This document shows, piece after piece, positions 13,312-63,899 of a stretch of 64,000 bases of DNA. This DNA comes from a virus (taxonomy: Duplodnaviria; Heunggongvirae; Uroviricota; Caudoviricetes). The notes beneath the pieces were generated by a model, which saw only the letters and a program-made list of their open reading frames with translations, did not search any database and was not told where the DNA came from. Where the stretch lies: positions 1 to 64,000 of the IMG/VR virus record IMGVR_UViG_3300028379_000400. One strand, given 5' to 3'. The stretch's first letter is position 1. Every line of letters starts with the position of its first letter. The position numbers and the translations under genes were made by a program.

Positions 13312-14424
13312 CTAAATCCTCATCGGCATGAGCACGAAGAGCGTGCTCGGATCGTCTTCGGCGAACAGGCGAGTTGGTGAGCCGGGCTCCGATACCGAGA
13401 TCGACACCTGCTTACCGCTGACGATGCCGAGGATGTCGTTGGCGTAGCGGGCGTTGAACCCGATCTCGAATGGCTCCGCCTCCCAGATCGCGTCCATGTC
13501 CTCGACGGAGTCGCCGTGGTCTGGGTTGGTGACGCTGATCTCGAGCTTGCCGGTTTCGAGCTTAAACTTGACGGCCTTGCCGCCGCGGTCTGAAGAGATG
13601 ACGGAGACCCGGTCGATCGCCGCTCGTAGATCGGACACCTTGACCGAAGCCACGGTATTGCTGAGGGCAGGGGTGACGCGCTTGTAGTCGGGGAAGGTGC
13701 CTTCGATCAGCTTCGACAGCAGCGAAACGCCGCCGATGGCGATGCGGATCTTGGTATCGGACACCTCGACTTTGATGTCGCCGCCGGCATCGAGAAGCTT
13801 GGAGATTTCGCCCACGGCCTTCCGCGGCACGATGATACCCGGCATGCCGTTCGAGCCATCGGGCGCCGGGCATTCGCAGCGGGCCATGCGATGGCCGTCG
13901 GTGGCGACGCCGCGCAGGACAGGCATGCGCTTCTCGTCCTCATCGACGTGCAGAAAAATGCCATTGAGGTAGTAGCGGGTTTCCTCGGTGGAGATGGCGA
14001 ACGCCGTCTTGGCGATGATGCGCGCCAGGTCGGCGGCCGGCATCGTGAACTCGTGAGTGAAGGTGCCGACCTTGAGGTCCGGGAAAGATTCTGGGCTCAG
14101 GATGTTGAGGCTGAAGCGGGACCGGCCGCTCTTGATGACGATATCATTCTCGCCGAGGGTGAACGTCAGCGCGCCTTCGGCGGCCTTGCGAACGATTTCG
14201 TGCAGGGTGCCGGCCGGGACTGTCGTCTTTCCGGGCGCATCGATGATCGCCTGCGCCGACTCCGTGATCTCGATATCGAGATCGGTGGCGCGCAGGGTGA
14301 TCTGGCCGTCTGCCGCGGTTATCAGGACGTTGGCGAGGATCGGATAGGTGTTGCGGCGTTCGACGACGCGGCTGACGTGGGCGACAACTTTGAGCAGCGC
14401 GGCGCGTTCGATGGTGAACTTCAT
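13312..14424 (-). CDS. dnaN: DNA polymerase III beta sliding clamp
   Basis: N-terminus MKFTIERAALLKVV...RRNTYPILANVLI and full-length three-domain clamp pattern. Confidence 0.85.
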   Translation of the reverse strand: MKFTIERAALLKVVAHVSRVVERRNTYPILANVLITAADGQITLRATDLDIEITESAQAIIDAPGKTTVPAGTLHEIVRKAAEGALTFTLGENDIVIKSGRSRFSLNILSPESFPDLKVGTFTHEFTMPAADLARIIAKTAFAISTEETRYYLNGIFLHVDEDEKRMPVLRGVATDGHRMARCECPAPDGSNGMPGIIVPRKAVGEISKLLDAGGDIKVEVSDTKIRIAIGGVSLLSKLIEGTFPDYKRVTPALSNTVASVKVSDLRAAIDRVSVISSDRGGKAVKFKLETGKLEISVTNPDHGDSVEDMDAIWEAEPFEIGFNARYANDILGIVSGKQVSISVSEPGSPTRLFAEDDPSTLFVLMPMRI

Positions 14425-19446: not shown

Positions 19447-19521
19447 GGGATGGCCTCGCCGCTAAGAGAGACCGTGGTGTATAAGAAAATTACACAGTTG
19501 GCAATATAGATCGAAAAAAAA

Positions 19522-19541
19522 TGTGCAACGGTTGTGTGCAC
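19522..19541. promoter_or_regulatory. imperfect TGTGCA-type operator in PL-like control region
   Basis: TGTGCAACGGTTGTGTGCAC; related to the 19-bp palindromes at 48082, 51990, 58079. Confidence 0.35.
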
Positions 19542-20419: not shown

Positions 20420-21067
20420 CTATGCCCGCCGGTGCCGCGAGAACAGCCCGACCTTGCCGATGATGATATCGATGACGTCGATCTGCGTCGACTCGTCACC
20501 CTTCATCTCGATGTCGGTTTGCCACGCCGGATCCGTGCTATGCGGCCGGAGATTCCATTTCTTGCCATTCTTGACAAGAAGCTTGGCGGTATACTCCGCC
20601 ATGCCATGTTCGAGACGCCTGACGATAACCAGGTCCCCGTCCTCTGGGATTAGCCCAGTATCGCTGACGCTCACGCCCTGCAGGTATTCGCCCTCCATGG
20701 CGAACCTGTTAATCGATGTGCCCTCTACCTCCCACAGTCGCTGCGCCGCAGCCGGATAATCCGACCGCGGGCTGTACGGCATGTCAAAGGGAACGAAGGC
20801 CACTGTCCCCTCCTTCCACACGCCGGCCGCGACTCTACCAACCACCATAAGACCGCCCGCCCCCTCACCGACGCCGCTCTCAAGCCACATGAGCGGCTTT
20901 TTGGTTAGCTCCGAGATTTCCTCGAGCGTCTTCCGGTGTGGACGGACTAAGTCGCCTTCCCATTTAGCGACGGCGCTACGAGTTTTTCCGAGCGCGAGCG
21001 CGAACTCCTCCTGCGAGGAATAACCCGCGTCGCGTCGTGCCTTTATCATGCGCTGTCCGAATGTCAT
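20420..21067 (-). CDS. CI-like phage repressor (XRE HTH + S24 LexA-like peptidase domain)
   Basis: N-terminal HTH (SQEEFALALGKTRSAVAKWE), C-terminal S24-like fold with K residue region AKLLVKNGKKW. Confidence 0.7.
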   Translation of the reverse strand: MTFGQRMIKARRDAGYSSQEEFALALGKTRSAVAKWEGDLVRPHRKTLEEISELTKKPLMWLESGVGEGAGGLMVVGRVAAGVWKEGTVAFVPFDMPYSPRSDYPAAAQRLWEVEGTSINRFAMEGEYLQGVSVSDTGLIPEDGDLVIVRRLEHGMAEYTAKLLVKNGKKWNLRPHSTDPAWQTDIEMKGDESTQIDVIDIIIGKVGLFSRHRRA

Positions 21068-21114
21068 TTGTCCACTATAACGCATCGCGTTTTCACATGC
21101 ACCGACACTTTTGC

Positions 21115-21189: not shown

Positions 21190-21501
21190 ATGTCACTTCC
21201 ATCTTGGGTTCGGCGCGGAGTCGAATGCGTTTGCATCGACGATGCCTGGAACAACACCTTCGATATTCCCAGCGAAGGGCCGCATCCGAAGCGTGGTGAC
21301 CACTTCATCGTTGCCGACACGATCGAACTGCTTGGGGTTTGGTACATTACCGTCGCCGAACCTCATGTTGCTCCTGACTACTACGCCGTTTCTGGCTTTC
21401 GCGGCCTGACGGCAGCAGAGATCGCCGTATCGGCGCTGTGGAAACGCTGGCTCAAAGCCGCTGTCGGACAGTCGGCGGCCGAACTGGAGCCGGCGCTCTA
21501 G
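21190..21501 (+). CDS. hypothetical protein (103 aa), first rightward early gene
   Basis: GGAGAGG RBS; ORF. Confidence 0.45.
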   Translation: MSLPSWVRRGVECVCIDDAWNNTFDIPSEGPHPKRGDHFIVADTIELLGVWYITVAEPHVAPDYYAVSGFRGLTAAEIAVSALWKRWLKAAVGQSAAELEPAL

Positions 21502-46381: not shown

Positions 46382-47644
46382 CTAGACCCGCATGGGCATA
46401 AGGACGGCCAGCCAGCCTTCGCGGCCTTCGCCGGTCACGACAGTCGGCGAACCAGCGTCATTGAACAGCATGGTCACTTCGTCGGAACGGGCCTCGGTAA
46501 CCAGGTCGGTGAGATAGCGGGCATTGAAGCCGATCTCGAACGACTCCGGCATTTGCTCGCCCGGGACGATTGCGAGGGGTACGGCCGACGATCCCATGTC
46601 GGGGTTGTTGCAGATCAGCGTGAGCTTGCCGCCCTCGAACGAAAGTTTGACCGCCTTGCCGCCGCGTTCCGATGCCACCAGCCCGGCCGCCTTGATCGCG
46701 GCGAGAGCGTCGGCGGCCTTGAACGTGACCGCCTTGTCATTGTTTTTCGGCGTGACACGCTCGTAATCGGGGAATGTTCCATCGATCATTTTGGACGTGA
46801 CTGTCACGCCATCCCAATGCAGCCGCATGAAGCGCTCGTGGACCTCGATTTCGACGGTCTCCGGCCGCGCCTTGCCCTTCATGAGCTTCACCAGAAGGGC
46901 GACCGTCTTTTTGGGGATGATGATGCCCGGCATGCCGATTGCGCCGTCTGGCGCCGTGATTTCGCTTCTCGCCATGCGATGGCCGTCAGTGGCCGTGCAG
47001 CGAAGCTCCGGCCGGTTGCGACCCGACGGCGTGACGACGTGCATATAGACGCCATTGAGATAGTACCGGGTCTCCTCATTTGAGACCGCGAACTCGACGG
47101 CGTCGAGCGAGTCAAAAAGCTCGATGCCAGAGAGGCTGAAGCGGTGCGTGAACTCGCCGGGCTTCAGTGCCGGGAACCCTTCTGACGGCAGAGCCGCCAT
47201 CTGGTAAGTGGCCGTGGCGAAATCGACATCGACCGCGCCGTCGAACGTGATGATGGTTTCCGTCGCGTCGGGGACGTTCTCGCCCTTCTCGATATCGAAT
47301 TTCCAACGCGTGACGCGTTCCACGGCCTTGGACGGTGGCATGGTGAAGGCGACGTATTCGGCCTTGGGCGCGCCCTTCAGCAATTGCTTCAGCATCAGCG
47401 CTGGCACGGTCACGTCGAACCGCTCATCGGCCGGCGCGGGCACGGCAACGTCGATCACGATATCGAGGTCGGTGCTCGTGACGAAAAGCATGTTGCCGTC
47501 GCCGCGAAGGCGGACGTTGGCAAGAATGGGGTAGGTGTTGCGACGCTCAACGATCTCCTCCGCGATCTCGACGGCGCGAGTCAGGGCGACGCGGTCGGCG
47601 ACGGCGGAAGCAAGGGCAGCGGAAGCAAGGGCAATGGCGGTCAT
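46382..47644 (-). CDS. dnaN: second DNA polymerase III beta sliding-clamp homologue
   Basis: RRNTYPILANVRL, three-domain clamp pattern, C-terminal LMPMR; leader motif upstream. Confidence 0.8.
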   Translation of the reverse strand: MTAIALASAALASAVADRVALTRAVEIAEEIVERRNTYPILANVRLRGDGNMLFVTSTDLDIVIDVAVPAPADERFDVTVPALMLKQLLKGAPKAEYVAFTMPPSKAVERVTRWKFDIEKGENVPDATETIITFDGAVDVDFATATYQMAALPSEGFPALKPGEFTHRFSLSGIELFDSLDAVEFAVSNEETRYYLNGVYMHVVTPSGRNRPELRCTATDGHRMARSEITAPDGAIGMPGIIIPKKTVALLVKLMKGKARPETVEIEVHERFMRLHWDGVTVTSKMIDGTFPDYERVTPKNNDKAVTFKAADALAAIKAAGLVASERGGKAVKLSFEGGKLTLICNNPDMGSSAVPLAIVPGEQMPESFEIGFNARYLTDLVTEARSDEVTMLFNDAGSPTVVTGEGREGWLAVLMPMRV

Positions 47645-48081: not shown

Positions 48082-48100
48082 TGTGTAATTTAATTGCACA
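48082..48100. promoter_or_regulatory. 19-bp palindromic operator TGTGTAATTTAATTGCACA
   Basis: near-perfect inverted repeat at head of leftward operon. Confidence 0.5.
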
Positions 48101-51989: not shown

Positions 51990-52008
51990 TGTGCAATAAA
52001 CTTGCACA
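51990..52008. promoter_or_regulatory. 19-bp palindromic operator TGTGCAATAAACTTGCACA
   Basis: perfect 7-bp arms; abuts stop of upstream operon. Confidence 0.5.
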
Positions 52009-57374: not shown

Positions 57375-57572
57375 TCAGCAATTTTCAAGTTGTTCGGCGA
57401 AGGCGAGCGCTTCGGCCGCTTGCTTGGCGAATTGCGCGGACATGCCCGCGTCGCACAGTTCGGCGGACCATTCGTTCCACTTGGCGGCGCTGCTACGGCA
57501 AATGTTGGCGAGCGTCCAACGGGTTTCCTCCGGGATTAGCTCTAGGGCAGCGGCGGGCAGTTCTTTCTGCAT
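57375..57572 (-). CDS. small hypothetical protein (65 aa)
   Basis: start MQKELPAAAL after leader motif. Confidence 0.35.
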   Translation of the reverse strand: MQKELPAAALELIPEETRWTLANICRSSAAKWNEWSAELCDAGMSAQFAKQAAEALAFAEQLENC

Positions 57573-57658
57573 TTGGGACTCCTCAATGCGCACAATCGCG
57601 CGGGGTTAGGCGTCTAGAGCCTAGTAGGACGCGCCACGCGGGCGCGCCCGGCTAGAGG

Positions 57659-57829
57659 CTAGGCGAAGTAACGGGCTATCGCCGCCAGCGCGTCCGCCTC
57701 ACAATCGAACAAGCCCCATGACTTGAGCCGTTGCGTTCCATGGCTGACATGCCAGCGACGCGCGAGGCGATCAAACCCGGTCACGAGACTGCCGGGCGCA
57801 TAGAGCTTGAGGTTGAGCAGGGTTTCCAT
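57659..57829 (-). CDS. small hypothetical protein (57 aa)
   Basis: METLLNL start with GAGGG RBS. Confidence 0.25.
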   Translation of the reverse strand: METLLNLKLYAPGSLVTGFDRLARRWHVSHGTQRLKSWGLFDCEADALAAIARYFA

Positions 57830-57839
57830 TGACGCGCCC

Positions 57840-58013
57840 TCAATAGCCAAGCCACGCCAGCACGGCGCTGGCGCGGTACGTGGCACGGTCGCCGCACTCG
57901 GCAAGAAACAGGGCGATTGATTCGGCGTCGTCAACGCCATGGCGTGCAAGCTCTTGCAGGGCGCGGGCTTTGGTGATCGTCACGCCACTTGCGGACTCGG
58001 AATAGGTGCACAT
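57840..58013 (-). CDS. small hypothetical protein (57 aa)
   Basis: MCTYSESASGV... preceded by leader GGAGTCCCGTGAATG; read manually. Confidence 0.25.
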   Translation of the reverse strand: MCTYSESASGVTITKARALQELARHGVDDAESIALFLAECGDRATYRASAVLAWLGY

Positions 58014-58078
58014 TCACGGGACTCCAATCGGTCGCGCACAATCGCGCATTGCGCACATGCTCATAGTTCGCCGCATTT

Positions 58079-58097
58079 GGCAAGCGCTTGTGCAAAG
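58079..58097. promoter_or_regulatory. 19-bp palindromic operator TGTGCAAAGATATTGCACA
   Basis: perfect 7-bp arms at head of leftward operon. Confidence 0.5.
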
Positions 58098-58099
58098 AT

Positions 58100-58620
58100 A
58101 TTGCACATTCCACGGACGCCAAAGGGAACGCGCGCGCATGTGAGGGCAGCACACTGGCCAGCCCTGCCACGTGGCTAGGTCGGACGCCATGCCTACGCCA
58201 CGCCAGCGCTGGCCAGCGTCATGCCGCACCGATAGCTGGCAACACGTCGCGCCTCGCTTCGCATGTCATGCCAGCGTGTCCAATTGATACCTGGCTACGG
58301 TTCACGCTCGCCGCTTGCCTCGCCGAGTCGCGCCGCTTGCCGCCTCGCCCATGACTGGCCAGCGCTGGCCGCGCCTCGCCCCTCCGGCCTCGCCGATCAT
58401 GCCGCGCGCCCGTCACTGACAGGATGTCACGATTTGACCCGGCGAGGCATGGCCACGCGTTCGGAGTGCCGTGCCCGCCTCGCCGTCGTCAACCCAAGCC
58501 GCGCGCAGCGTCCGAGACCCCTAGGGGGGTCTAAATCTCTAGGCGCCGGCGGAAGGCCCTGACCGCGGGGGCCCCAAGCCCGAAAAAAATTTGGTATGCA
58601 CAGTTTTTGATCCAGCCAAA
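58100..58620. repeat. GC-rich non-coding region with short direct repeats (GCCTCGCC, TCATGCC) and GCCAGCGCTGGC palindromes
   Basis: no credible ORF; multiple repeat copies seen by eye. Confidence 0.4.
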
Positions 58621-58659
58621 AAAATCCCAGTCGACCGCCGGCGCGTGGCGATCGCTGGG
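58617..58659 (-). terminator. Rho-independent terminator of XRE gene
   Basis: minus-sense CCCAGCGATCGCC...GGCGGTCGACTGGG hairpin followed by TTTTTTT. Confidence 0.4.
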
Positions 58660-58698
58660 CTGCAGCTCAGCGGTGTTTTGGCTTGCTCGAGGCCGCTC

Positions 58699-58890
58699 TT
58701 ACGGCGTCAAGGCGCCGGCGAGATCCTTCATCCGGAGAGCCAGGCGCAAATAGGCGGCAAGCGGCCCGGGAATGCGATCGTCCACGATCCAGCGGCTCAT
58801 TGTGGTGCGGTGCGTGGCCGTCCGTCGAGACAATTCGTTCTGGGACCAGCCGAGATCTTGAAGCGCCTGTTTGAGCTCTCGCGAGTTCAT
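58699..58890 (-). CDS. XRE-family HTH regulator (63 aa)
   Basis: LKQALQDLGWSQNELSRRTATHRTTMSRW; GGGAAGG RBS; promoter region carries TGTGCAAT repeats. Confidence 0.6.
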   Translation of the reverse strand: MNSRELKQALQDLGWSQNELSRRTATHRTTMSRWIVDDRIPGPLAAYLRLALRMKDLAGALTP

Positions 58891-59004
58891 GTCGACCTTC
58901 CCGTGAATGTGTCTGGTCCTCCTAGCGGTCAGTATCCCGATATGCGGGAAATAGACCCTTCCGACGGCCGGGTGAAGACCGATGTGCAATTTCGGCGACG
59001 AAAA

Positions 59005-59046
59005 TGTGCAATAAAAGTTGACACTGCTGAAATCCTGTCGTATGAA
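59005..59046 (+). promoter_or_regulatory. sigma70-like promoter TTGACA-17-TATGAA overlapping degenerate TGTGCAAT operator
   Basis: -35 at 59018-59023, -10 at 59041-59046; TGTGCAAT at 58983 and 59005. Confidence 0.5.
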
Positions 59047-59149
59047 CGGGGCCTGCAGTGACGGCCTGGCAGGCGCACCGAGCACAAACGGGAAAGCCTG
59101 CTGAAGTTCTCGAGCTCTCTCACTCAAAAGCTCGATGGTGGAGGGCTAA

Positions 59150-59600
59150 GTCGCCCCCTTCGAAGATGGGCGTAATTCGGTTCGAGTAGATAGCGGATAG
59201 CACCCGGGGGCAGTACCCGGCGCTTCCACCATGGTCGCATCTGTCGCCGGCGTCGAGCTGGCTTCGCCGCCCTTCACTGGGGCGGTCATTGCGAGGGCAG
59301 TGAAGCCTCGCCGGGATGCGCCTTTGATGGGAGCGAAACAGGATCGACTACCGCGGGAAGCAAGAAACGCGCTTCGGCATGGCACCGCCGAGATCGGGCC
59401 GACGAGTAACTGCGAACGATAATGTCCGCACTGGTGAGATGGCCCTCGCGGCCTAATCACCTGGGGCCCGCCGGCGCCTCGCAACAGAAGCCGGCAGCGC
59501 GGGGATTGCCCAAGTCGAGTTCCGCGTAAAGGCACAGTTGGGTTGCGACCGCGGTAAGCGCGGCGAGCTGGTGGAAGGCCGGCAATGATTTTCTGGTTGT
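59150..59600 (+). ncRNA. ssrA: circularly permuted (two-piece) tmRNA gene, ends approximate
   Basis: acceptor 3' strand CGCTTCC-A-CCA at 59221-59231; downstream 5' strand GGGAGCG (59329-59335) pairs 7/7 incl. G3-U; followed by AAACAGGATCGACTACCGCGGG; tag ORF GCG AAC GAT AAT...TAA at 59412-59456 = ANDNVRTGEMALAA. Confidence 0.55.
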
Positions 59601-59940
59601 CGAGCGGGCTGGCCTCCGTCTCTGCGAACCTGGGGCTAACGCGTCCAAGGGCGTGACGGGCGGAGAGAGTGCCGCAACAGAATTCGCCCTGACGGGCACA
59701 ACGGTTTGGGTGCGAGCTCGAGCGGTGAAGTGAAGGGGTCCTCGCGTGGGGCACGGTCCATGGATGCGTGCGGCGACGAGTAGCCGGTCTTCCGCGCTCC
59801 GAGGTCGGAGCAAATGACAGCTCCACCCAATTCAATCCGCCGCGGCGCTTACGAGCGTCCGGCAAACCAATAGGCGAGGGCAGGAGGCCACTCCTCCCGC
59901 GACACCCGGCAGGTGCTTCTGCCGACCGTCGCGGTTGTCT

Positions 59941-59966
59941 CGCCTGCTGGGGAGGCGGTTTTTGGG
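59941..59966 (+). terminator. possible Rho-independent terminator
   Basis: CGCCT-GCTGGGG-AGGCG followed by GTTTTTGGG. Confidence 0.3.
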
Positions 59967-60043
59967 AGCCGCGGCTTGGTGCTCGTCCGCCAACGCCGCC
60001 GGCGGGGACCGCCTCCCTCATCCACCAATCGAACGGAGGCAAC

Positions 60044-60601
60044 TTGGAAGACGCTATCGAATTCGAGCCTTTCCAGAAGATCGCTCGCCTGAAACGCGCG
60101 TGCATCATTACCGAGAAGATCGACGGCACCAATGCCTGCGTCTTCATTGGCGACGATGGCGAGTTCCGCGTTGGCAGTCGGACTCGCTGGATCACGCCTG
60201 AAGACGACAACCACGGGTTTGCTCGCTGGGCTTTCGCTCACCGCGACGAGCTGATGGAGCTTGGCCCTGGCCGTCACTTTGGCGAATGGTGGGGCCTCGG
60301 CATCCAGCGCAGCTATGGTCTGAAGGAAAAGCGCTTCTCCTTGTTCAACGTCGGGCGCTGGAATGCCGAGACTCCGCCGCCGGCGTGCTGCGGCACTGTC
60401 CCGGTTCTTTTCGAAGGCCCGTTCGATACCGGTGCCGTCGACGGCGTGCTCGCGTTCCTTCGTCGGAACGGCTCCAGCGCGGCGCCTGGCTTCTCCAAGC
60501 CCGAAGGCATCATCGTCTATCTGCCGGCCGCTCGGGACTATTTCAAAGTCACCCTCGAGGGCGACGAGGCGCCGAAGAGCCTTTCGGCCAAGGCAGCATA
60601 A
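60044..60601 (+). CDS. Rnl2-like RNA ligase / nucleotidyltransferase
   Basis: motif I EKIDGTN, motif III FGEWWG, motif IV EGIIVY, motif V FKVT; TTG start with ACGGAGG RBS. Confidence 0.55.
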   Translation: MEDAIEFEPFQKIARLKRACIITEKIDGTNACVFIGDDGEFRVGSRTRWITPEDDNHGFARWAFAHRDELMELGPGRHFGEWWGLGIQRSYGLKEKRFSLFNVGRWNAETPPPACCGTVPVLFEGPFDTGAVDGVLAFLRRNGSSAAPGFSKPEGIIVYLPAARDYFKVTLEGDEAPKSLSAKAA

Positions 60602-61042
60602 CGAGTTTCATCGGCCGGCCAGAAACGTCTCGAGTCCTGGCGTCTCGGCCGTGAAGTGAGGCGGCATGCATTCTAGGGTCCGCACCTGCAGGGACGGATC
60701 GGCCTTCAGGTAACTGCTGGCTGGTGTGCCGCCTCCATAGTTTCCCGCCGCTCCGCCACATGGCTAGCGGCGGGGAGTCGACGGCGGCGTTGAAGGCAGG
60801 CCTGCAGGCCAAGAGAAACGCAGCGAACATAGATGGAGCGATCTGGCCGCAAGCCTTCGGACCGCAGAGGTCAATGGGGCGGTTCATCGTTCACGACAGA
60901 AACCTCCCGGGCCGGCAGGAAACGCGGGGCAGGAAGGTGAGGCGGATCCGCTGCCGCGGGCGAGCCGAGCCCTTGAACATAATCCACCAGATCTTGCCCG
61001 GGTCGCGCCGGGCCCGTCGAAAACTAGCAAAGGGAAAACAAG

Positions 61043-61498
61043 GTGAACACGAATCTCGTCGCCGCAATTGATGATCTTGTCGAGAAAAAGACGTTCTCGC
61101 TAGACGCACTAAAAGCGATCCAGGATCTGCGCGCTAAGGCCGAGAAGTCCTTAGAAACCGAAGCCCAGAACGCAGCCAAGATAACATCTCAGGCGGACAA
61201 TCTTTCGAAGCTCAGTGCTGAAATTAACGCATGGCAGTCGAAGGACGCCGCGTTGAAGGCCCGCGAGGATGCGGTCGCTAAACGCGAAGCGGCGATCACC
61301 AGGCTCGAGCTCGAGACGGCGGTCGCCAACGCCGGCATGAATGTTATGCGCGAAACGGTTTCGATGTTCCTCCGCAACAGGGTCGTGCGCGAGGACATCG
61401 TATCCAGCACTCCGGTAGGGGTTCCGGGCGGAGGGGGCGGTCCTGGCTACATCCAGAACGCTCCAAAGACCGAGAACATCACGCGCGAAGAGCAGTAG
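61043..61498 (+). CDS. coiled-coil hypothetical protein (151 aa)
   Basis: GTG start; heptad-rich; Gly-rich tail. Confidence 0.4.
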   Translation: MNTNLVAAIDDLVEKKTFSLDALKAIQDLRAKAEKSLETEAQNAAKITSQADNLSKLSAEINAWQSKDAALKAREDAVAKREAAITRLELETAVANAGMNVMRETVSMFLRNRVVREDIVSSTPVGVPGGGGGPGYIQNAPKTENITREEQ

Positions 61499-61500
61499 CC

Positions 61501-61770
61501 ATGAAGCTCCGCGACGTCAAACCTGGCATGACGGTCTACCCCGACGCCGATTTCACCTGCGTCGATGCCGATACGCCGTCGGTCGTCAAGCGCGAGTCCT
61601 TCATCAAGCGGCTGTGGCAATGGCTGCGCACCGGCGACATGCCGCATGGGTTGTACATCGACTGCGATTGCGGTGAGCACGGCCTCGACGGCCAGGAGCG
61701 CGAGGACGGCACGCTGTCCGGCATCGCAGCGCTGCCGTGGGTCGGCATCAATGGGCGCCAGAATCCATGA
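61501..61770 (+). CDS. hypothetical protein (89 aa)
   Basis: ORF. Confidence 0.4.
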   Translation: MKLRDVKPGMTVYPDADFTCVDADTPSVVKRESFIKRLWQWLRTGDMPHGLYIDCDCGEHGLDGQEREDGTLSGIAALPWVGINGRQNP

Positions 61771-62066
61771 ATTTGCTCACAGAGGCCGTGGCCCGCACCA
61801 AATGGTGCCCGTTGGGTGCCGAGCGATCAGCCGGCAGACTAAATCCGGCTGCGAACCGAGCTCGCGACGGGGGCGAGCGAGTCTTGCTAACGAATTGCGT
61901 CGCCAGCGATTGCATGATGTGGCGGGCTGTCCCAGATGATTGCCCGGATTGCAAGGGCACGGGCAGGCACGTCAGTCAGGGATATCCGCTAGTCTGCAGC
62001 ACATGCCAAGGCAGCGGCAGGGCGGCATCCTACACGGGCTACTGCGGCCTGGCTGGTCGGCCATGA
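61767..62066 (+). CDS. small protein with two DnaJ-type CxxCxGxG zinc-finger motifs
   Basis: CPDCKGTG and CSTCQGSG; ATGA coupling. Confidence 0.4.
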   Translation: MNLLTEAVARTKWCPLGAERSAGRLNPAANRARDGGERVLLTNCVASDCMMWRAVPDDCPDCKGTGRHVSQGYPLVCSTCQGSGRAASYTGYCGLAGRP

Positions 62067-62275
62067 CTTACGCTGAACGCCGCGCTGCAGCGATCGCCCT
62101 CGCCGCTGCATACAATGGCTGGGCCCGCCCGCCGACTCCAGAAGGCAAGCCTCCGGCCCGCCGGATGGTCATCTATGGCCGGCGCCGCTGGGCCTTCGTT
62201 CCAAACACAGCGGCGCTCGACGCCGAGCAGGCCGCGCGCGAGCGCCGCCAAGACCGCATCGCTTTCAAGAAATAG
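62063..62275 (+). CDS. small hypothetical protein (70 aa)
   Basis: ATGA coupling. Confidence 0.3.
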   Translation: MTYAERRAAAIALAAAYNGWARPPTPEGKPPARRMVIYGRRRWAFVPNTAALDAEQAARERRQDRIAFKK

Positions 62276-62285
62276 GAGGTTTGAC

Positions 62286-63899
62286 TTGCAGGCTTCGACC
62301 GCGACTAGCGCTCAACGTCACGACGAATACTACTTCGACCATTTCGCGGACAACTGCCGCGCATATTTCGCCAAGGTGATTGCCGAATACGGGCCACACC
62401 TCTTCACCGTCGACGTCGGCGATCACGACCTCTACGCCTCCTATCTCGACAGCCTGCCGTCGCAGGATCGTCAGCACCACACCTGCCATTGCTGCAAGCA
62501 GTTTATCGAGCGCTACGGCAATCTTGCAGCGATCGCGCCAGACGGCCGGCTGATCCCTGCGATCTGGGATGTGGTCGGCGCGGATGATCTTTATGCCGAC
62601 GCAGTTTCGGCGATGTACCGCGCTGTCGCGGCGGGCAAGGTCACCGGCGTCTTTCTGGCGAGCAGCCCGGTTTGGGGAACACCGGTCACCGGCACATGGA
62701 CGCACTTCTCGATCGACGTCCCTGTCGAGCTCCGCTATCGCCGCGGCACGCTGACGGCCGGCCAGGCGATGGCGGCGAAGCGTGAAGATTACGGCACGCT
62801 GCAGCGCGGACTCGCCGAATACAACCGAAACGCCGTGGCGCAGGCGCTGACGCTCCTCGAGTCCGAAGCGCTCTATCGCAGCGAGAAGGTCGTCGGGCCC
62901 GCGCGCTTCCTCCTCGAGCTGCACGATGCCCGCGCCAAGGCGCACGGCCGTCAGCGCGAGAACGTCACGTGGCTTGCCGTGGCAAAGGCGCCGGCTGGCT
63001 TCTGCACGCCGCGCAGCTCAATGGTCGGTACGCTGCTGGACGACATCGTGGCGGGCAAAAGCTTCGCCGACGTCAAGCGCAGCTTCGCCGACAAGATGCA
63101 GCCCGAGCGCTACCAGCGTCCGACGGCGGCGCCCAGCTCCGGTAACATCGCGCAAGCCGAGAAGCTCGTCGAGCAGATGGGGATCAAGGCGTCGCTGCGC
63201 AGGCGCTACGCGCGGCTCGAGGACCTCAGGACGATCTGGACGCCGCAGCCGTTGCCGTTCGCACCTGCGCCCTCCGGCGGCGTCTTCACGCATCTGCAGC
63301 CGAGCGGCCGCGCGCCGACGGCGCCTCCAATGCGGACGGCCGCAATCCCGATCACGTGGTCGAAGTTCGCACGCACGGTGATCCCCAATGCCCTGAAGAT
63401 CGAGGTCTATGCGGCTCACCAGGCCCTGCAGCTCGTCGGGCTGGTCACGGCGACCGATCCCGCCGCGCCGCCGATCTTGCAGTGGGATCGAGACGAAGAC
63501 CGAAACCCCGTCTCCTGGTACGTCTACAACCACGGGTCATCACCCGAGGAATGGTCGTTGCGTTCCGGGTCGTGGGTGCCGGTGACCGCGATCACATTGC
63601 AGCCGTCGATGTGGGCTGGCGAAGAAGCTTTCCCCCATCACGGCAAGAGCGCCATTCTGGTGCTCGAAGGCGCCAAGGATAAGCGCAGCCCCAACCTTGC
63701 GCTATTCCCCGAGATCCTTCGTACCGAACTACATGCCATCCGCTCCACGATCGAGGCGTTCTCGAAGGCCGGCGAGATCGAAGGAGCCGCTGAGGCATCG
63801 GCCAATGGGCTGCGCGTCGGTGGCGATGGAGCTTCGCCTGCCATCCGCGTCACTACGTCGATTGGAGCGGCTACTTACTCGATCGACCGGTGGGAGTAG
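62286..63899 (+). CDS. large hypothetical protein (537 aa)
   Basis: TTG start after AGGAGG RBS; HTCHCCKQF Cys cluster; no recognisable family. Confidence 0.45.
   Translation: MQASTATSAQRHDEYYFDHFADNCRAYFAKVIAEYGPHLFTVDVGDHDLYASYLDSLPSQDRQHHTCHCCKQFIERYGNLAAIAPDGRLIPAIWDVVGADDLYADAVSAMYRAVAAGKVTGVFLASSPVWGTPVTGTWTHFSIDVPVELRYRRGTLTAGQAMAAKREDYGTLQRGLAEYNRNAVAQALTLLESEALYRSEKVVGPARFLLELHDARAKAHGRQRENVTWLAVAKAPAGFCTPRSSMVGTLLDDIVAGKSFADVKRSFADKMQPERYQRPTAAPSSGNIAQAEKLVEQMGIKASLRRRYARLEDLRTIWTPQPLPFAPAPSGGVFTHLQPSGRAPTAPPMRTAAIPITWSKFARTVIPNALKIEVYAAHQALQLVGLVTATDPAAPPILQWDRDEDRNPVSWYVYNHGSSPEEWSLRSGSWVPVTAITLQPSMWAGEEAFPHHGKSAILVLEGAKDKRSPNLALFPEILRTELHAIRSTIEAFSKAGEIEGAAEASANGLRVGGDGASPAIRVTTSIGAATYSIDRWE

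What the first reader, a model, noticed from the sequence alone, without database searches (positions are those of the whole stretch)
59005..60601. Two-piece permuted tmRNA gene beside an RNA ligase, its promoter carrying the element's operator motif
The tag reading frame GCG-AAC-GAT-AAT...GCC-TAA (ANDNVRTGEMALAA) fits the alphaproteobacterial ANDN...ALAA consensus. The acceptor 3' strand + ACCA (59221-59231) lies upstream of the 5' strand GGGAGCG (59329), which pairs 7/7 including the G3-U AlaRS identity pair and is followed by the conserved GGAUCGAC...GGG motif. That gene order is the circular permutation typical of alphaproteobacterial ssrA. Its sigma70-like promoter overlaps a TGTGCAAT operator like those in the element, and an Rnl2-family RNA ligase is the next gene. 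So either the element integrated next to host ssrA (no integrase or direct-repeat att site is visible in the window), or it carries its own tmRNA plus an RNA-repair ligase, e.g. to counter ribosome stalling or anticodon-nuclease defences.
Basis: seen in the sequence. Interest (0 to 1): 0.6.

Follow-up and report, generated by a model that had tools for sequence, protein, structure and literature searches.

The report
Phage-borne two-piece tmRNA gene
The sequence holds a complete, circularly permuted (two-piece) tmRNA gene of the alphaproteobacterial type that belongs to a large tailed phage rather than to a bacterial chromosome, which is a known though uncommon kind of phage cargo.

Summary
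Rfam matches window 59120-59498 (+) to the alphaproteobacterial tmRNA model at 110 bits (cut-off 50, E 4e-29), and to the general permuted-tmRNA model at 105 bits. The 7-bp acceptor stem with G3·U, the T-arm, encoded ACCA, pseudoknot PK1 (supported by covariation) and the tag ANDNVRTGEMALAA are all present. ARAGORN misses the gene at its default threshold but calls it at 99% of that threshold.

The window is phage DNA-metabolism genes throughout. On the same metagenomic contig, 6-9 kb past the window end, lie 14 tRNA genes, then terminase, portal, protease and an HK97-type capsid gene. No integrase, host gene or tmRNA duplicate flanks the gene.

The neighbouring 185-aa protein is a minimal RNA-ligase nucleotidyltransferase (PF09414). 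Its best fold matches are Naegleria Rnl5, then T4 Rnl2. The tmRNA-ligase adjacency was not seen in any relative examined. The "operator" is a real 19-bp palindrome elsewhere in the element, but only a weak copy overlaps the tmRNA's -35 box.

Phage-encoded two-piece tmRNAs are already documented, so this is a new member of a known kind.

The parts
58699..58890 (-). 63-aa helix-turn-helix (Cro/CI-type) regulator gene, divergent from the tmRNA gene. Candidate binder of the operator-like sites.
   Evidence: Translation. Pfam HTH_3 E 1.1e-4 (22.6 bits, just under the 23-bit cut-off). PHROG 4779 'transcriptional regulator' E 2.2e-6.
58983..59023 (+). Operator-like sites upstream of the tmRNA. TGTGCAAT half-site at 58983-58990. 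A 19-bp site TGTGCAATAAAAGTTGACA at 59005-59023 has 3 mismatches to TGTGCAA-N5-TTGCACA and contains the whole -35 hexamer.
   Evidence: Perfect or near-perfect palindromes lie at 51990-52008, 58089-58107 and 48082-48100: 6 sites at up to 3 mismatches against 1.7 expected, reached by 0 of 100 shuffles.
59018..59046 (+). Promoter-like element: TTGACA (59018-59023), 17-nt spacer, TATGAA (59041-59046).
   Evidence: Read from the sequence. Not reported by the strict consensus scan because the -10 hexamer lacks T at position 6. Function is inferred.
59120..59498 (+). Whole permuted tmRNA (ssrA) gene as delimited by the alphaproteobacterial covariance model.
   Evidence: RF01849 110 bits, E 4.1e-29, model 1-355. 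ARAGORN at -ps99 calls a permuted tmRNA at 59135-59547.
59168..59231 (+). Acceptor piece: 5' strands of helix P2, T-arm (59204-59220), acceptor 3' strand CGCTTCC (59221-59227) and encoded ACCA (59228-59231).
   Evidence: Rfam alignments. Sequence.
59232..59328 (+). 97-nt intervening segment, removed on maturation. It folds into a closed stem structure.
   Evidence: Length lies within the 30-149 nt seen in 24 other alpha-type genes. MFE -49.6 kcal/mol. Excision is inferred from the family.
59329..59375 (+). Start of the coding piece: acceptor 5' strand GGGAGCG (59329-59335; G3·U with T59225), conserved AGGATCGAC, and 3' strands of P2.
   Evidence: Rfam alignments. Sequence.
59375..59401 (+). 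Pseudoknot PK1. Stem 1 is 59375-59378 with 59387-59390 (extendable by U59374-A59391 and U59373·G59392). Stem 2 is 59380-59383 and 59385-59386 with 59396-59401, with A59384 bulged.
   Evidence: Alignment A1 and pair counts: 91% of cells paired against 21-50% when partners are slid. Four pairs change on both sides. The window sequence forms all 10 pairs.
59412..59456 (+). Tag reading frame ANDNVRTGEMALAA plus TAA. Resume codon GCG lies 10 nt after PK1.
   Evidence: ARAGORN. Rfam alignment. Comparable tags ANDN...EMALAA in other alpha-type tmRNAs.
59463..59495 (+). 3' pseudoknot-like element with the conserved GCAACAGAA loop. GCCGGC 59470-59475 pairs with GCCGGC 59490-59495. GGGGC 59463-59467 pairs with GCCTC 59476-59480.
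   Evidence: Aligned to the 3' end of RF01849. The same element, with changed stem sequences, appears in other loci (alignment). The pairing is my reading and was not tested statistically.
59940..59963 (+). Terminator-like hairpin plus T-run between the tmRNA gene and the ligase gene.
   Evidence: The count of such sites in the region (5) is no higher than in shuffles (4.5), so this is weak.
60044..60601 (+). 185-aa RNA-ligase-family nucleotidyltransferase (TTG start after GGAGG). Motif I K25-x-D27-G28-x-N30.
   Evidence: Pfam PF09414 E 1.7e-13, 51.5 bits against cut-off 27. PHROG 548. Invariant residues. Model pLDDT 90. Top folds are Naegleria RNA ligase, then T4 Rnl2.
62286..63899 (+). DUF8224 (PF26675) protein of 537 aa (594 aa if read from the upstream ATG at 62115). 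Widespread in phages, function unknown. Marks the right flank as phage DNA.
   Evidence: PHROG 1735 E 2e-115. 100% identical P0001 on a 98.8-kb contig. 47-50% identical proteins in Rhizobium phages B1VFA and RHph_X66.

Best explanation
This is a genuine, structurally complete two-piece (circularly permuted) tmRNA gene of the alphaproteobacterial type. It is carried as cargo by a large tailed phage: at least 125 kb is assembled, and one contig carrying a gene from the same stretch is 196 kb. The host is probably an alphaproteobacterium of the order Hyphomicrobiales.

**Shown here**
- The gene is a full-length tmRNA gene.
- It lies deep inside phage DNA.
- It shares a strand and region with an RNA-ligase-like gene, a 14-tRNA array and the packaging and head genes.

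**Inferred from what is established for two-piece tmRNAs (Keiler et al. 2000, cited in PMC9004378)**
- The gene is transcribed as one precursor from the TTGACA-N17-TATGAA element.
- The 97-nt intervening segment is removed, RNase P cutting 5' of G59329 and 3' trimming stopping at the encoded CCA.
- The two pieces stay base-paired, are charged with alanine through the G3·U pair, and work with the host's SmpB.
- They rescue ribosomes stalled on broken mRNAs and tag the nascent chains with ANDNVRTGEMALAA for ClpXP-type proteolysis.

**Likely benefit, and what remains a hypothesis**
- The likely benefit to the phage is more ribosome-rescue capacity during infection, alongside its own tRNAs.
- A weak copy of the element's 19-bp palindromic operator covers the -35 box. 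Expression may therefore be repressed by a phage regulator until lytic growth. This step is a hypothesis only.
For: **Identity**
- RF01849 110 bits, E 4e-29, and RF04321 105 bits.
- ARAGORN calls a permuted tmRNA with the same tag at 99% of its default threshold.
- PK1 is supported by covariation: 91% of cells paired against 21-50% for slid controls, and 4 pairs change on both sides.
- The tag fits 94 other alpha-type tags, several of which end in EMALAA.

**Phage-borne**
- The window to the left holds a CI-like repressor, RecT and exonuclease VIII, two clamp genes, DnaB, a primase, helicases, methyltransferases and a MoxR/VWA pair.
- To the right lie the phage-type ligase and DUF8224.
- On the same contig, 14 tRNA genes lie 6-9 kb past the window end. 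Then come TerS, TerL, portal, a ClpP-type protease, an HK97-type capsid gene and connector genes.
- The same arrangement appears in two assemblies, ENA ERZ27251944 and Logan SRR5451461.
- No segment of the tmRNA longer than 12 nt recurs in the window.
- No integrase was found among about 70 ORFs scanned.

**Host**
- GC content is 62%.
- Among genomes sharing the acceptor/T-arm 19-mer, the closest bacterial tmRNAs are from Hyphomicrobium.
- Neighbouring genes have homologues in Mesorhizobium, Devosia and Methylobacterium and in Rhizobium phages.

**Precedent**
- Phage-encoded two-piece tmRNAs are documented in PMC9004378.
- The cultured Rhodobacter phage RcSimone-Hastad has an unannotated one.
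Against: - There is no expression, processing or charging data.
- ARAGORN's default threshold is narrowly missed, and Rfam marks a few non-canonical pairs in P2.
- The -10 hexamer is weak, and the strict promoter scan finds nothing.
- No SmpB gene was found among the ORFs scanned or in the precomputed Pfam hits for the 20 kb downstream. Function would therefore depend on compatibility with host SmpB.
- Cofolding of the two pieces is no more stable than shuffled controls (z -0.65), so thermodynamics adds nothing.
- The window and the contigs are metagenomic, so host and lifestyle are inferred.
Confidence: 0.85

Rival explanations
1. The tmRNA is the host's own chromosomal ssrA, and the phage-like element is a prophage or island integrated next to it, as is common for tmRNA genes.
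For: tmRNA genes are frequent integration sites (PMC4383910, PMC11915505, listed). The element has a CI-like repressor and so may be temperate.
Against: - Phage genes lie on both sides for at least 59 kb to the left and 20 kb to the right, including the tRNA array and the terminase-capsid genes.
- There is no integrase in the window.
- There is no partial tmRNA duplicate.
- No GTDB species-representative genome sharing the 19-nt acceptor/T-arm word has a closely similar tmRNA. The best is 49 bits by nhmmer, from a Hyphomicrobium genome.
Confidence: 0.03
2. The copy is a passenger picked up from a host by imprecise excision, or it serves as the phage attachment site (attP). Either way it is not expressed as a working tmRNA.
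For: - Buchholz et al. propose capture through temperate phages as the origin of phage ssrA genes (PMC9004378).
- In a permuted gene, a phage integrating at the T-loop would have to carry almost the whole gene to restore it.
- The 19-nt T-arm/acceptor word is identical to that of Hyphomicrobium tmRNAs.
- The -10 box is weak.
Against: - The copy is full length, including the 5' P2 strands and the leader.
- Every helix tested is intact, and the changes relative to bacterial homologues are compensatory. That argues for selection on structure.
- The tag frame is intact with a canonical ALAA end.
- No integrase lies nearby, whereas attP normally adjoins int.
- It sits in the same orientation as, and near, the tRNA array, as in other phages that carry translation RNAs.
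Confidence: 0.08
3. The tmRNA, the adjacent minimal RNA ligase and the tRNA array form one repressor-controlled module. Its specific role is to counter host RNA-targeting defences, such as anticodon nucleases, mRNA interferases and CRISPR RNases.
For: - The tmRNA, ligase, DUF8224 gene and tRNA genes share a strand within 14 kb.
- In other phages this ligase family sits next to tRNA genes in 6 of the 8 loci that have any tRNA nearby.
- In Rhizobium phages the ligase and DUF8224 genes lie in one region with RtcB.
- An operator-like site overlaps the -35 box.
Against: - The tmRNA-ligase adjacency is not conserved. No tmRNA was detected in 83 ligase loci by ARAGORN, nhmmer or Rfam as applied. No ligase relative occurs in 119 viral tmRNA loci.
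- Only 6 of 83 ligase loci have a tRNA within 1 kb.
- A terminator-like hairpin separates the two genes.
- The operator copy is weak.
- There are no functional data.
Confidence: 0.12
4. The arrangement is an assembly artefact that joined a piece of bacterial chromosome to a phage contig.
For: All the source sequences are metagenomic assemblies. In one assembly the window is split over two contigs.
Against: - The HTH-tmRNA-ligase-DUF8224 order is identical in two assemblies (L205 from ENA and L206 from Logan).
- Composition is uniform across the junctions.
- The element's own operator-like motif lies immediately upstream of the gene.
Confidence: 0.02

Closest known systems
Alphaproteobacterial two-piece tmRNA (Rfam RF01849; prototype Caulobacter crescentus ssrA, Keiler et al. 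2000)
   Same: Permuted gene order, encoded CCA, 7-bp acceptor stem with G3·U, T-arm, AGGAUCGAC motif, P2 helices, PK1, ANDN...ALAA tag and the 3' element with a GCAACAGAA loop.
   Different: It sits in a phage genome rather than a chromosome. Acceptor pair 4 is A-U, a variant absent from 119 viral alpha-type loci. Among GTDB representative genomes that variant was found mainly in Rickettsiales and a few Hyphomicrobium. The tag's central residues VRTGEM were not seen in the other tags collected.
Phage-encoded two-piece tmRNAs of marine myophages (OM43 phage Melnitz, Pelagibacter myophages; Buchholz et al. 2022, PMC9004378)
   Same: A complete alphaproteobacterial-type permuted ssrA carried by a large phage that also carries tRNA genes, downstream of an early-type promoter.
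   Different: Here the phage is GC-rich (62%) and apparently temperate, with an HK97-type head. No glutamine riboswitch or other Rfam element lies in the 3' region. The neighbours are an HTH regulator and an RNA ligase. In that survey, 50 of the 53 two-piece phage tmRNAs came from marine or aquatic phages.
Unannotated tmRNA of Rhodobacter capsulatus phages RcSimone-Hastad (MW677525.1) and RcRudolph (OP009285.1)
   Same: The only deposited phage genomes with blastn similarity to this tmRNA: 74% over the tag-to-3' region. RcSimone-Hastad has a full alpha-type permuted tmRNA among its DNA-metabolism genes (RF01849 97.7 bits).
   Different: Those phages are about 63 kb, with different flanking genes (HIRAN-domain protein and topoisomerase) and no adjacent ligase. 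RcRudolph was not scanned with Rfam.
Soil rhizobiophage with tmRNA: Sinorhizobium jumbo phage AP-J-162 (PMC11242549)
   Same: A soil alphaproteobacterial phage reported with many tRNA genes (66) and one tmRNA.
   Different: It is a 471-kb lytic jumbo phage. I did not compare its tmRNA sequence.
Rnl5 / Rnl2 RNA ligases (Naegleria gruberi NgrRnl, Deinococcus DraRnl, T4 Rnl2)
   Same: The nucleotidyltransferase fold and the lysine motif KxDGxN. Best structural matches are NgrRnl (E 3e-6, TM 0.61) and then T4 Rnl2. Pfam PF09414.
   Different: Only 185 aa, with no N-terminal OB domain (Rnl5) and no C-terminal domain (Rnl2). Identity is about 20%. There is no sequence-level PDB hit. The TIGR02306 score is far below its cut-off.

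Membership tests
Two-piece (permuted) alphaproteobacterial tmRNA, RF01849 / RF04321 | Score above the curated covariance-model threshold over the full model | tested here: met
   110 bits against 50 (model 1-355) and 105.4 bits against 47 (model 1-213)..
Two-piece (permuted) alphaproteobacterial tmRNA, RF01849 / RF04321 | Circular permutation: the 3' acceptor strand plus CCA lies upstream of the 5' acceptor strand, with an intervening segment between them | tested here: met
   CGCTTCC-ACCA at 59221-59231, a 97-nt spacer, then GGGAGCG at 59329-59335.
Two-piece (permuted) alphaproteobacterial tmRNA, RF01849 / RF04321 | tRNA-like domain: 7-bp acceptor stem with the G3·U alanine identity pair, and a T-arm | tested here: met
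   All 7 pairs form, with G59331·T59225 at position 3. The T-arm 59204-59220 aligns with posterior probability near 1.
Two-piece (permuted) alphaproteobacterial tmRNA, RF01849 / RF04321 | Pseudoknot PK1 just upstream of the resume codon | tested here: met
   Ten-pair H-type pseudoknot. 91% of cells paired against 21-50% for slid partners. The covariation score exceeds all 500 shuffles. The window sequence forms all pairs. The alignment has only 10 sequences, which I chose for having the same architecture.
Two-piece (permuted) alphaproteobacterial tmRNA, RF01849 / RF04321 | Tag reading frame that starts with an alanine resume codon and ends in a hydrophobic ALAA-type degron plus a stop codon | tested here: met
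   GCG...GCC TAA = ANDNVRTGEMALAA*. Compare the tags.
Two-piece (permuted) alphaproteobacterial tmRNA, RF01849 / RF04321 | Processing into two base-paired RNAs, alanylation, SmpB binding and trans-translation activity | not testable with these tools
   Needs RNA and biochemical experiments. No SmpB gene was found in the element parts examined.
Phage-encoded tmRNA | The gene lies inside a virus genome, with hallmark virion and packaging genes on the same molecule and viral genes on both sides | tested here: met
   TerS, TerL, portal, protease and HK97-type capsid genes lie on the same contig about 15 kb downstream. A tRNA array lies between. Phage replication genes lie upstream.
Genomic island or prophage integrated at a host tmRNA gene | A tyrosine integrase next to the gene and a direct repeat of the tmRNA 3' part at the other end | tested here: not met
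   No integrase among the ORFs scanned in the window. No repeat of any tmRNA segment longer than 12 nt. The far end of the element lies outside the window and was not examined.
Genomic island or prophage integrated at a host tmRNA gene | Host chromosomal genes on one side of the tmRNA | tested here: not met
   Both sides are phage genes.
Rnl2-family RNA ligase (T4 Rnl2 type) | Covalent nucleotidyltransferase domain with the lysine motif KxDGxN | tested here: met
   PF09414 at 51.5 bits against cut-off 27. K25, D27, G28 and N30 are invariant in 24 homologues. The fold matches RNA ligases.
Rnl2-family RNA ligase (T4 Rnl2 type) | Rnl2-specific C-terminal domain of about 90 aa | tested here: not met
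   The protein is 185 aa. The Pfam domain covers residues 20-169, and residues 180-185 are disordered in the model.
Rnl2-family RNA ligase (T4 Rnl2 type) | RNA nick-sealing activity | not testable with these tools
   Needs an enzyme assay.

The most novel reading that the evidence does not exclude
The phage keeps its tmRNA under a phage repressor, through the operator-like site covering the -35 box. On induction it switches the tmRNA on together with a minimal RNA ligase of the Rnl5/Rnl2 type and 14 tRNAs. Together they would form one 'keep translation running' module that repairs or bypasses damage done by host RNA-cleaving defence systems. The unusual central tag residues (VRTGEM) might in addition change the fate of tagged proteins.
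Probability: 0.1. Interest if true: 0.6.

Novelty: new member of a known kind. Interest (0 to 1): 0.3.

Why it matters
The finding adds a GC-rich, probably Hyphomicrobiales-infecting and apparently temperate large phage to the short list of viruses that carry a complete two-piece tmRNA. Most documented cases are marine or aquatic.

There is a practical lesson for annotation. Default ARAGORN misses this gene. The Rhodobacter phage RcSimone-Hastad record has a comparable tmRNA that is not annotated. Phage tmRNAs are therefore probably under-counted, and covariance models should be run on phage genomes.

The locus would suit a test of what a phage gains from its own ribosome-rescue RNA, and of whether that RNA is repressor-controlled. 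Nothing here challenges current understanding.

Tried and rejected
- **ARAGORN at default settings** on the window found nothing. The gene scores just under the threshold.
- **DNA similarity searches.** Megablast of the region against plasmids and of 21 kb against phages found nothing. blastn of the tmRNA against 50,697 phage genomes found only two Rhodobacter phages.
- **Exact tag-region search** in IMG/VR found nothing.
- **First genome-contig scan**, with the DUF8224 protein, found nothing.
- **Second genome-contig scan**, with the 19-nt acceptor/T-arm word, found 43 loci.
  - Most are Rickettsiales tmRNAs and two are from Hyphomicrobium.
  - Eleven hits in non-alphaproteobacterial genome bins are not tmRNAs. 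Rfam finds none there, and several share flanking sequence around the word. I set these aside as unrelated.
- **Search for a conserved tmRNA-ligase pair** found none.
  - No ligase relative occurs in 119 viral tmRNA loci.
  - No tmRNA was found in 83 ligase loci or in relatives of DUF8224. The checks on L001-L080 used ARAGORN at default (first 60 only) and nhmmer with this one sequence. They could miss divergent permuted tmRNAs.
- **Att-repeat search** found nothing longer than 12 nt.
- **The 545-nt untranslated stretch 59499-60043.** No Rfam hit at E<=1 and no unusual folding (z -1.0).
- **Cofolding of the acceptor and coding pieces** was uninformative (z -0.65).
- **Strict sigma-70 scan** found no promoter.
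- **SmpB** was not found among the ORFs scanned with Pfam.
Full report

Yes. A scan of the whole 64-kb window against Rfam at curated thresholds gives two hits, both at the reported place:
- RF01849 (alphaproteobacterial tmRNA) at 59120-59498 on the + strand, 110 bits against a threshold of 50, E 4.1e-29, covering model positions 1-355.
- RF04321 (general permuted tmRNA) at 59168-59456, 105.4 bits against 47.

A more permissive scan of 57500-62200 adds nothing else.
- CGCTTCC at 59221-59227, followed by ACCA at 59228-59231.
- GGGAGCG at 59329-59335, which pairs with CGCTTCC at all seven positions, with G·T at position 3.
- AGGATCGAC after the 5' strand.
- A frame at 59412-59456 reading ANDNVRTGEMALAA then stop.

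ARAGORN reports no gene at default settings. Run locally at 99% of its default threshold it reports a single permuted tmRNA at 59135-59547 with the same tag. The discrepancy is a near miss of a threshold, not a disagreement.

**2. Is the RNA structurally complete?**

- I aligned the stretch between helix P2 and the resume codon with nine other alpha-type tmRNAs: Hyphomicrobium, Rickettsiales and viral-contig sequences (A1).
- I then counted pairs for an H-type pseudoknot. Stem 1 is 59375-59378 with 59387-59390. Stem 2 is 59380-59383 and 59385-59386 with 59396-59401, with A59384 bulged.
- 91% of cells form standard pairs, against 21-50% when the 3' partners are slid by 1-3 columns.
- Four of the ten pairs change on both sides. 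The covariation score exceeds all 500 shuffles.
- The window sequence forms all ten pairs. Where Hyphomicrobium has A-U and U·G, it has G-C and C-G.
- The alignment is small, and I chose the sequences for having the same architecture. This is supportive rather than rigorous.

Other features also fit the family.
- The 3' region carries the family's GCAACAGAA loop inside a hairpin (GCCGGC 59470-59475 with 59490-59495). Its stem sequence differs from that of related loci while pairing is kept (alignment).
- The 97-nt intervening segment lies within the 30-149 nt range of 24 comparison genes.
- The tag fits the natural range. Of 119 viral loci with an alpha-type T-arm/acceptor signature, ARAGORN tmRNAs, nearly all with ANDN... 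tags, several ending in EMALAA. In the 43 genome loci it more.

**3. Host gene next to an element, or cargo of the element?**

The window is phage-like from end to end.
- PHROG and Pfam scans of about 70 ORFs find a CI-like repressor (20420-21085), RecT and exonuclease VIII, two DnaN clamps, DnaB, a primase, Dda-like and other helicases, several DNA methyltransferases, thymidylate synthase and a MoxR ATPase with its VWA partner.
- They find no integrase and no obviously bacterial housekeeping gene.
- Immediately left of the tmRNA is a divergent 63-aa HTH gene. Immediately right are an RNA-ligase-family gene and a DUF8224 gene.
- The best named relatives of the DUF8224 protein are in Rhizobium phages RHph_X66 (50%) and B1VFA (47%).

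The DUF8224 protein occurs with 100% identity on a 98,769-bp metagenomic contig (ENA ERZ27251944) and on a Logan contig, with the same gene order.
- The ENA contig begins at window position 21482 and runs 56 kb beyond the window end.
- A second contig of the same sample covers the left part of the window and 4.8 kb beyond it.
- At least 125 kb is therefore assembled. A protein from the downstream part sits on a contig of 195,839 bp.

On the 98.8-kb contig, 6-9 kb past the window end, lies an array of 14 tRNA genes on the same strand: Ser x2, Tyr, Leu x2, Trp, Gln, Pro, Thr, Asn, Ala, Cys, Met and Ile. The small and large terminase subunits, portal, ClpP-type protease, HK97-type major capsid and connector genes follow directly.

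No segment of the tmRNA longer than 12 nt recurs in the window. The tmRNA is therefore internal cargo of a large tailed phage. The 'integrated next to host ssrA' reading is not tenable.

**4. Likely host**
- GC content is 62% throughout.
- A scan of GTDB representative genomes for the 19-nt T-arm/acceptor word returned mostly Rickettsiales (AT-rich, dissimilar elsewhere) and two Hyphomicrobium genomes. Those two tmRNAs are the most similar overall, at 49 and 40 bits by nhmmer.
- Neighbouring phage proteins have homologues in Mesorhizobium, Devosia and Methylobacterium records.
- This points to Hyphomicrobiales. It is an inference.
- The A4-U acceptor variant of this tmRNA was absent from all 119 viral alpha-type loci collected.

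**5. The ligase**
- The 185-aa product matches Pfam RNA_ligase (PF09414, 51.5 bits against 27) and PHROG 548.
- It belongs to a very large family of proteins of about 180 aa: more than 8000 homologues, many at 65-76% identity.
- K25, D27, G28 and N30 (motif KxDGxN) are invariant in 24 homologues.
- The AlphaFold model is confident (pLDDT 90).
- Its best solved-structure matches are Naegleria gruberi RNA ligase (Rnl5 type; E 3e-6, TM 0.61), then T4 Rnl2, archaeal Rnl3 and trypanosome REL1.
- It has neither the Rnl5 N-terminal domain nor the Rnl2 C-terminal domain. 'Rnl2-family' holds at the level of the nucleotidyltransferase fold but not as strict membership.

**6. Is tmRNA plus ligase a unit?**

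I found no evidence for it.
- None of the 119 viral tmRNA loci encodes a ligase relative.
- No tmRNA was detected in the ligase loci. This covers the 80 IMG/VR loci (ARAGORN on the first 60, nhmmer on all 80) and the three closest relatives at 72-76% identity (Rfam). The first two checks are less sensitive than a covariance model.
- The ligase family does show a loose link with tRNA genes. Six of 83 loci have a tRNA within 1 kb, and these are six of the eight loci with any tRNA in the fetched flanks. One 72%-identical relative is flanked by three tRNAs.
- The simplest reading is that phages tend to cluster RNA-related genes. In this phage the tmRNA occupies such a position.

**7. Promoter and operator**
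- The candidate promoter has a perfect -35 box (TTGACA, 59018-59023) and a 17-nt spacer. Its -10 box, TATGAA, fails the strict scan.
- TGTGCAAT alone is barely enriched.
- The palindrome TGTGCAA-N5-TTGCACA occurs perfectly at 51990-52008 and 58089-58107, with none expected, and with one mismatch at 48082-48100.
- At up to three mismatches there are six sites against 1.7 expected. One is 59005-59023, which contains the whole -35 hexamer.
- A further half-site lies 22 bp upstream, at 58983.
- Repressor control of the tmRNA is therefore plausible but rests on a weak site. Which protein binds the motif is unknown. Candidates are the adjacent HTH protein and the CI-like repressor.

**8. Comparison with what is known**
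- Phage tmRNAs are documented. A survey found them in 402 of 18,146 phage genomes. Of 133 unique tmRNA structures, 53 were two-piece by ARAGORN, and 50 of those came from marine or aquatic phages. The study also described the alpha-type two-piece ssrA of phage Melnitz and of Pelagibacter myophages (PMC9004378).
- The current tmRNA database lists 79 unique bacteriophage sequences (PMC11915505).
- A Sinorhizobium jumbo phage is reported with 66 tRNAs and one tmRNA (PMC11242549).
- I also found that the cultured Rhodobacter phage RcSimone-Hastad carries a full alpha-type permuted tmRNA that its GenBank record does not annotate.
- The present gene is thus a new member of a known kind.

**9. Verdict**
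The promoter-operator and Rnl2 claims hold only in part. The functional link to the ligase and to counter-defence is unsupported.
- Interest is modest (0.3).

Noticed in passing
L205 17765-20461 (equivalent to window 70050-72746, just outside the window): An array of 14 tRNA genes on the same strand as the tmRNA: Ser-GCT, Ser-CGA, Tyr, Leu-CAA, Leu-CAG, Trp, Gln, Pro, Thr, Asn, Ala, Cys, Met and Ile. The terminase, portal, protease and HK97-type capsid genes follow directly (L257 11131-16997).
   Followed up: yes
L262 2203-2593 (Rhodobacter phage RcSimone-Hastad, MW677525.1, about 32.1-32.5 kb): A full alpha-type permuted tmRNA (RF01849 97.7 bits, RF04321 108.7 bits) that is not annotated in the GenBank record. 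It lies between a HIRAN-domain gene and a topoisomerase gene. RcRudolph (OP009285.1) gives the same blastn match, under a 'hypothetical protein'.
   Followed up: partly
[not shown]
   Followed up: partly
window 48082-48100, 51990-52008, 58089-58107 (weaker: 19478-19496, 19522-19540, 59005-59023): A 19-bp palindrome TGTGCAA-N5-TTGCACA recurring between genes (6 sites against 1.7 expected). It is probably the operator of a phage regulator. The binding protein was not identified.
   Followed up: partly
window 58014-58698: About 680 bp with no convincing ORF, between the early leftward genes and the HTH gene. It is rich in short repeats (GCCAGCGCTGGCC, CGCCGCTTGCC x2, CATGCC...). The motif CACATTCACGGGA at 58009-58021 recurs inverted at 58899-58911, just upstream of the HTH start codon. 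This may be a regulatory or origin-like region.
   Followed up: no
window 59499-60043: A 545-nt untranslated stretch between the tmRNA and the ligase gene. No Rfam match at E<=1 and no unusual folding (z -1.0). It contains a second GCAACAGAA (59673-59682) and ends in a terminator-like hairpin (59940-59958).
   Followed up: partly
window 13312-14424 and 46382-47644: Two separate DNA polymerase III beta (sliding clamp) genes in one phage, both strong matches to PHROG 947.
   Followed up: no
window 60044-60601; L260, L038, L056: The 180-aa minimal RNA-ligase family is very large (more than 8000 homologues at E<1e-10). When tRNA genes are nearby they usually lie directly beside it. In L260 three tRNAs flank the gene, and one falls inside its over-called N-terminus.
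   Followed up: partly
L210 8573-8629; L212 12010-12100: A type-P5 twister ribozyme (41 bits, cut-off 37.6) lies near the tRNAs upstream of DUF8224 in one temperate-phage contig. A DUF3800-VII RNA (72.5 bits) lies in another.
   Followed up: no
L208 12287-16671 (beyond the window's left end): Past the window start, the other contig carries a pyocin-activator-like gene. It is followed by an Acetyltransf_6 gene, a FAD-binding monooxygenase-like gene and a further 385-aa gene. This may be metabolic cargo or the edge of the element.
   Followed up: no
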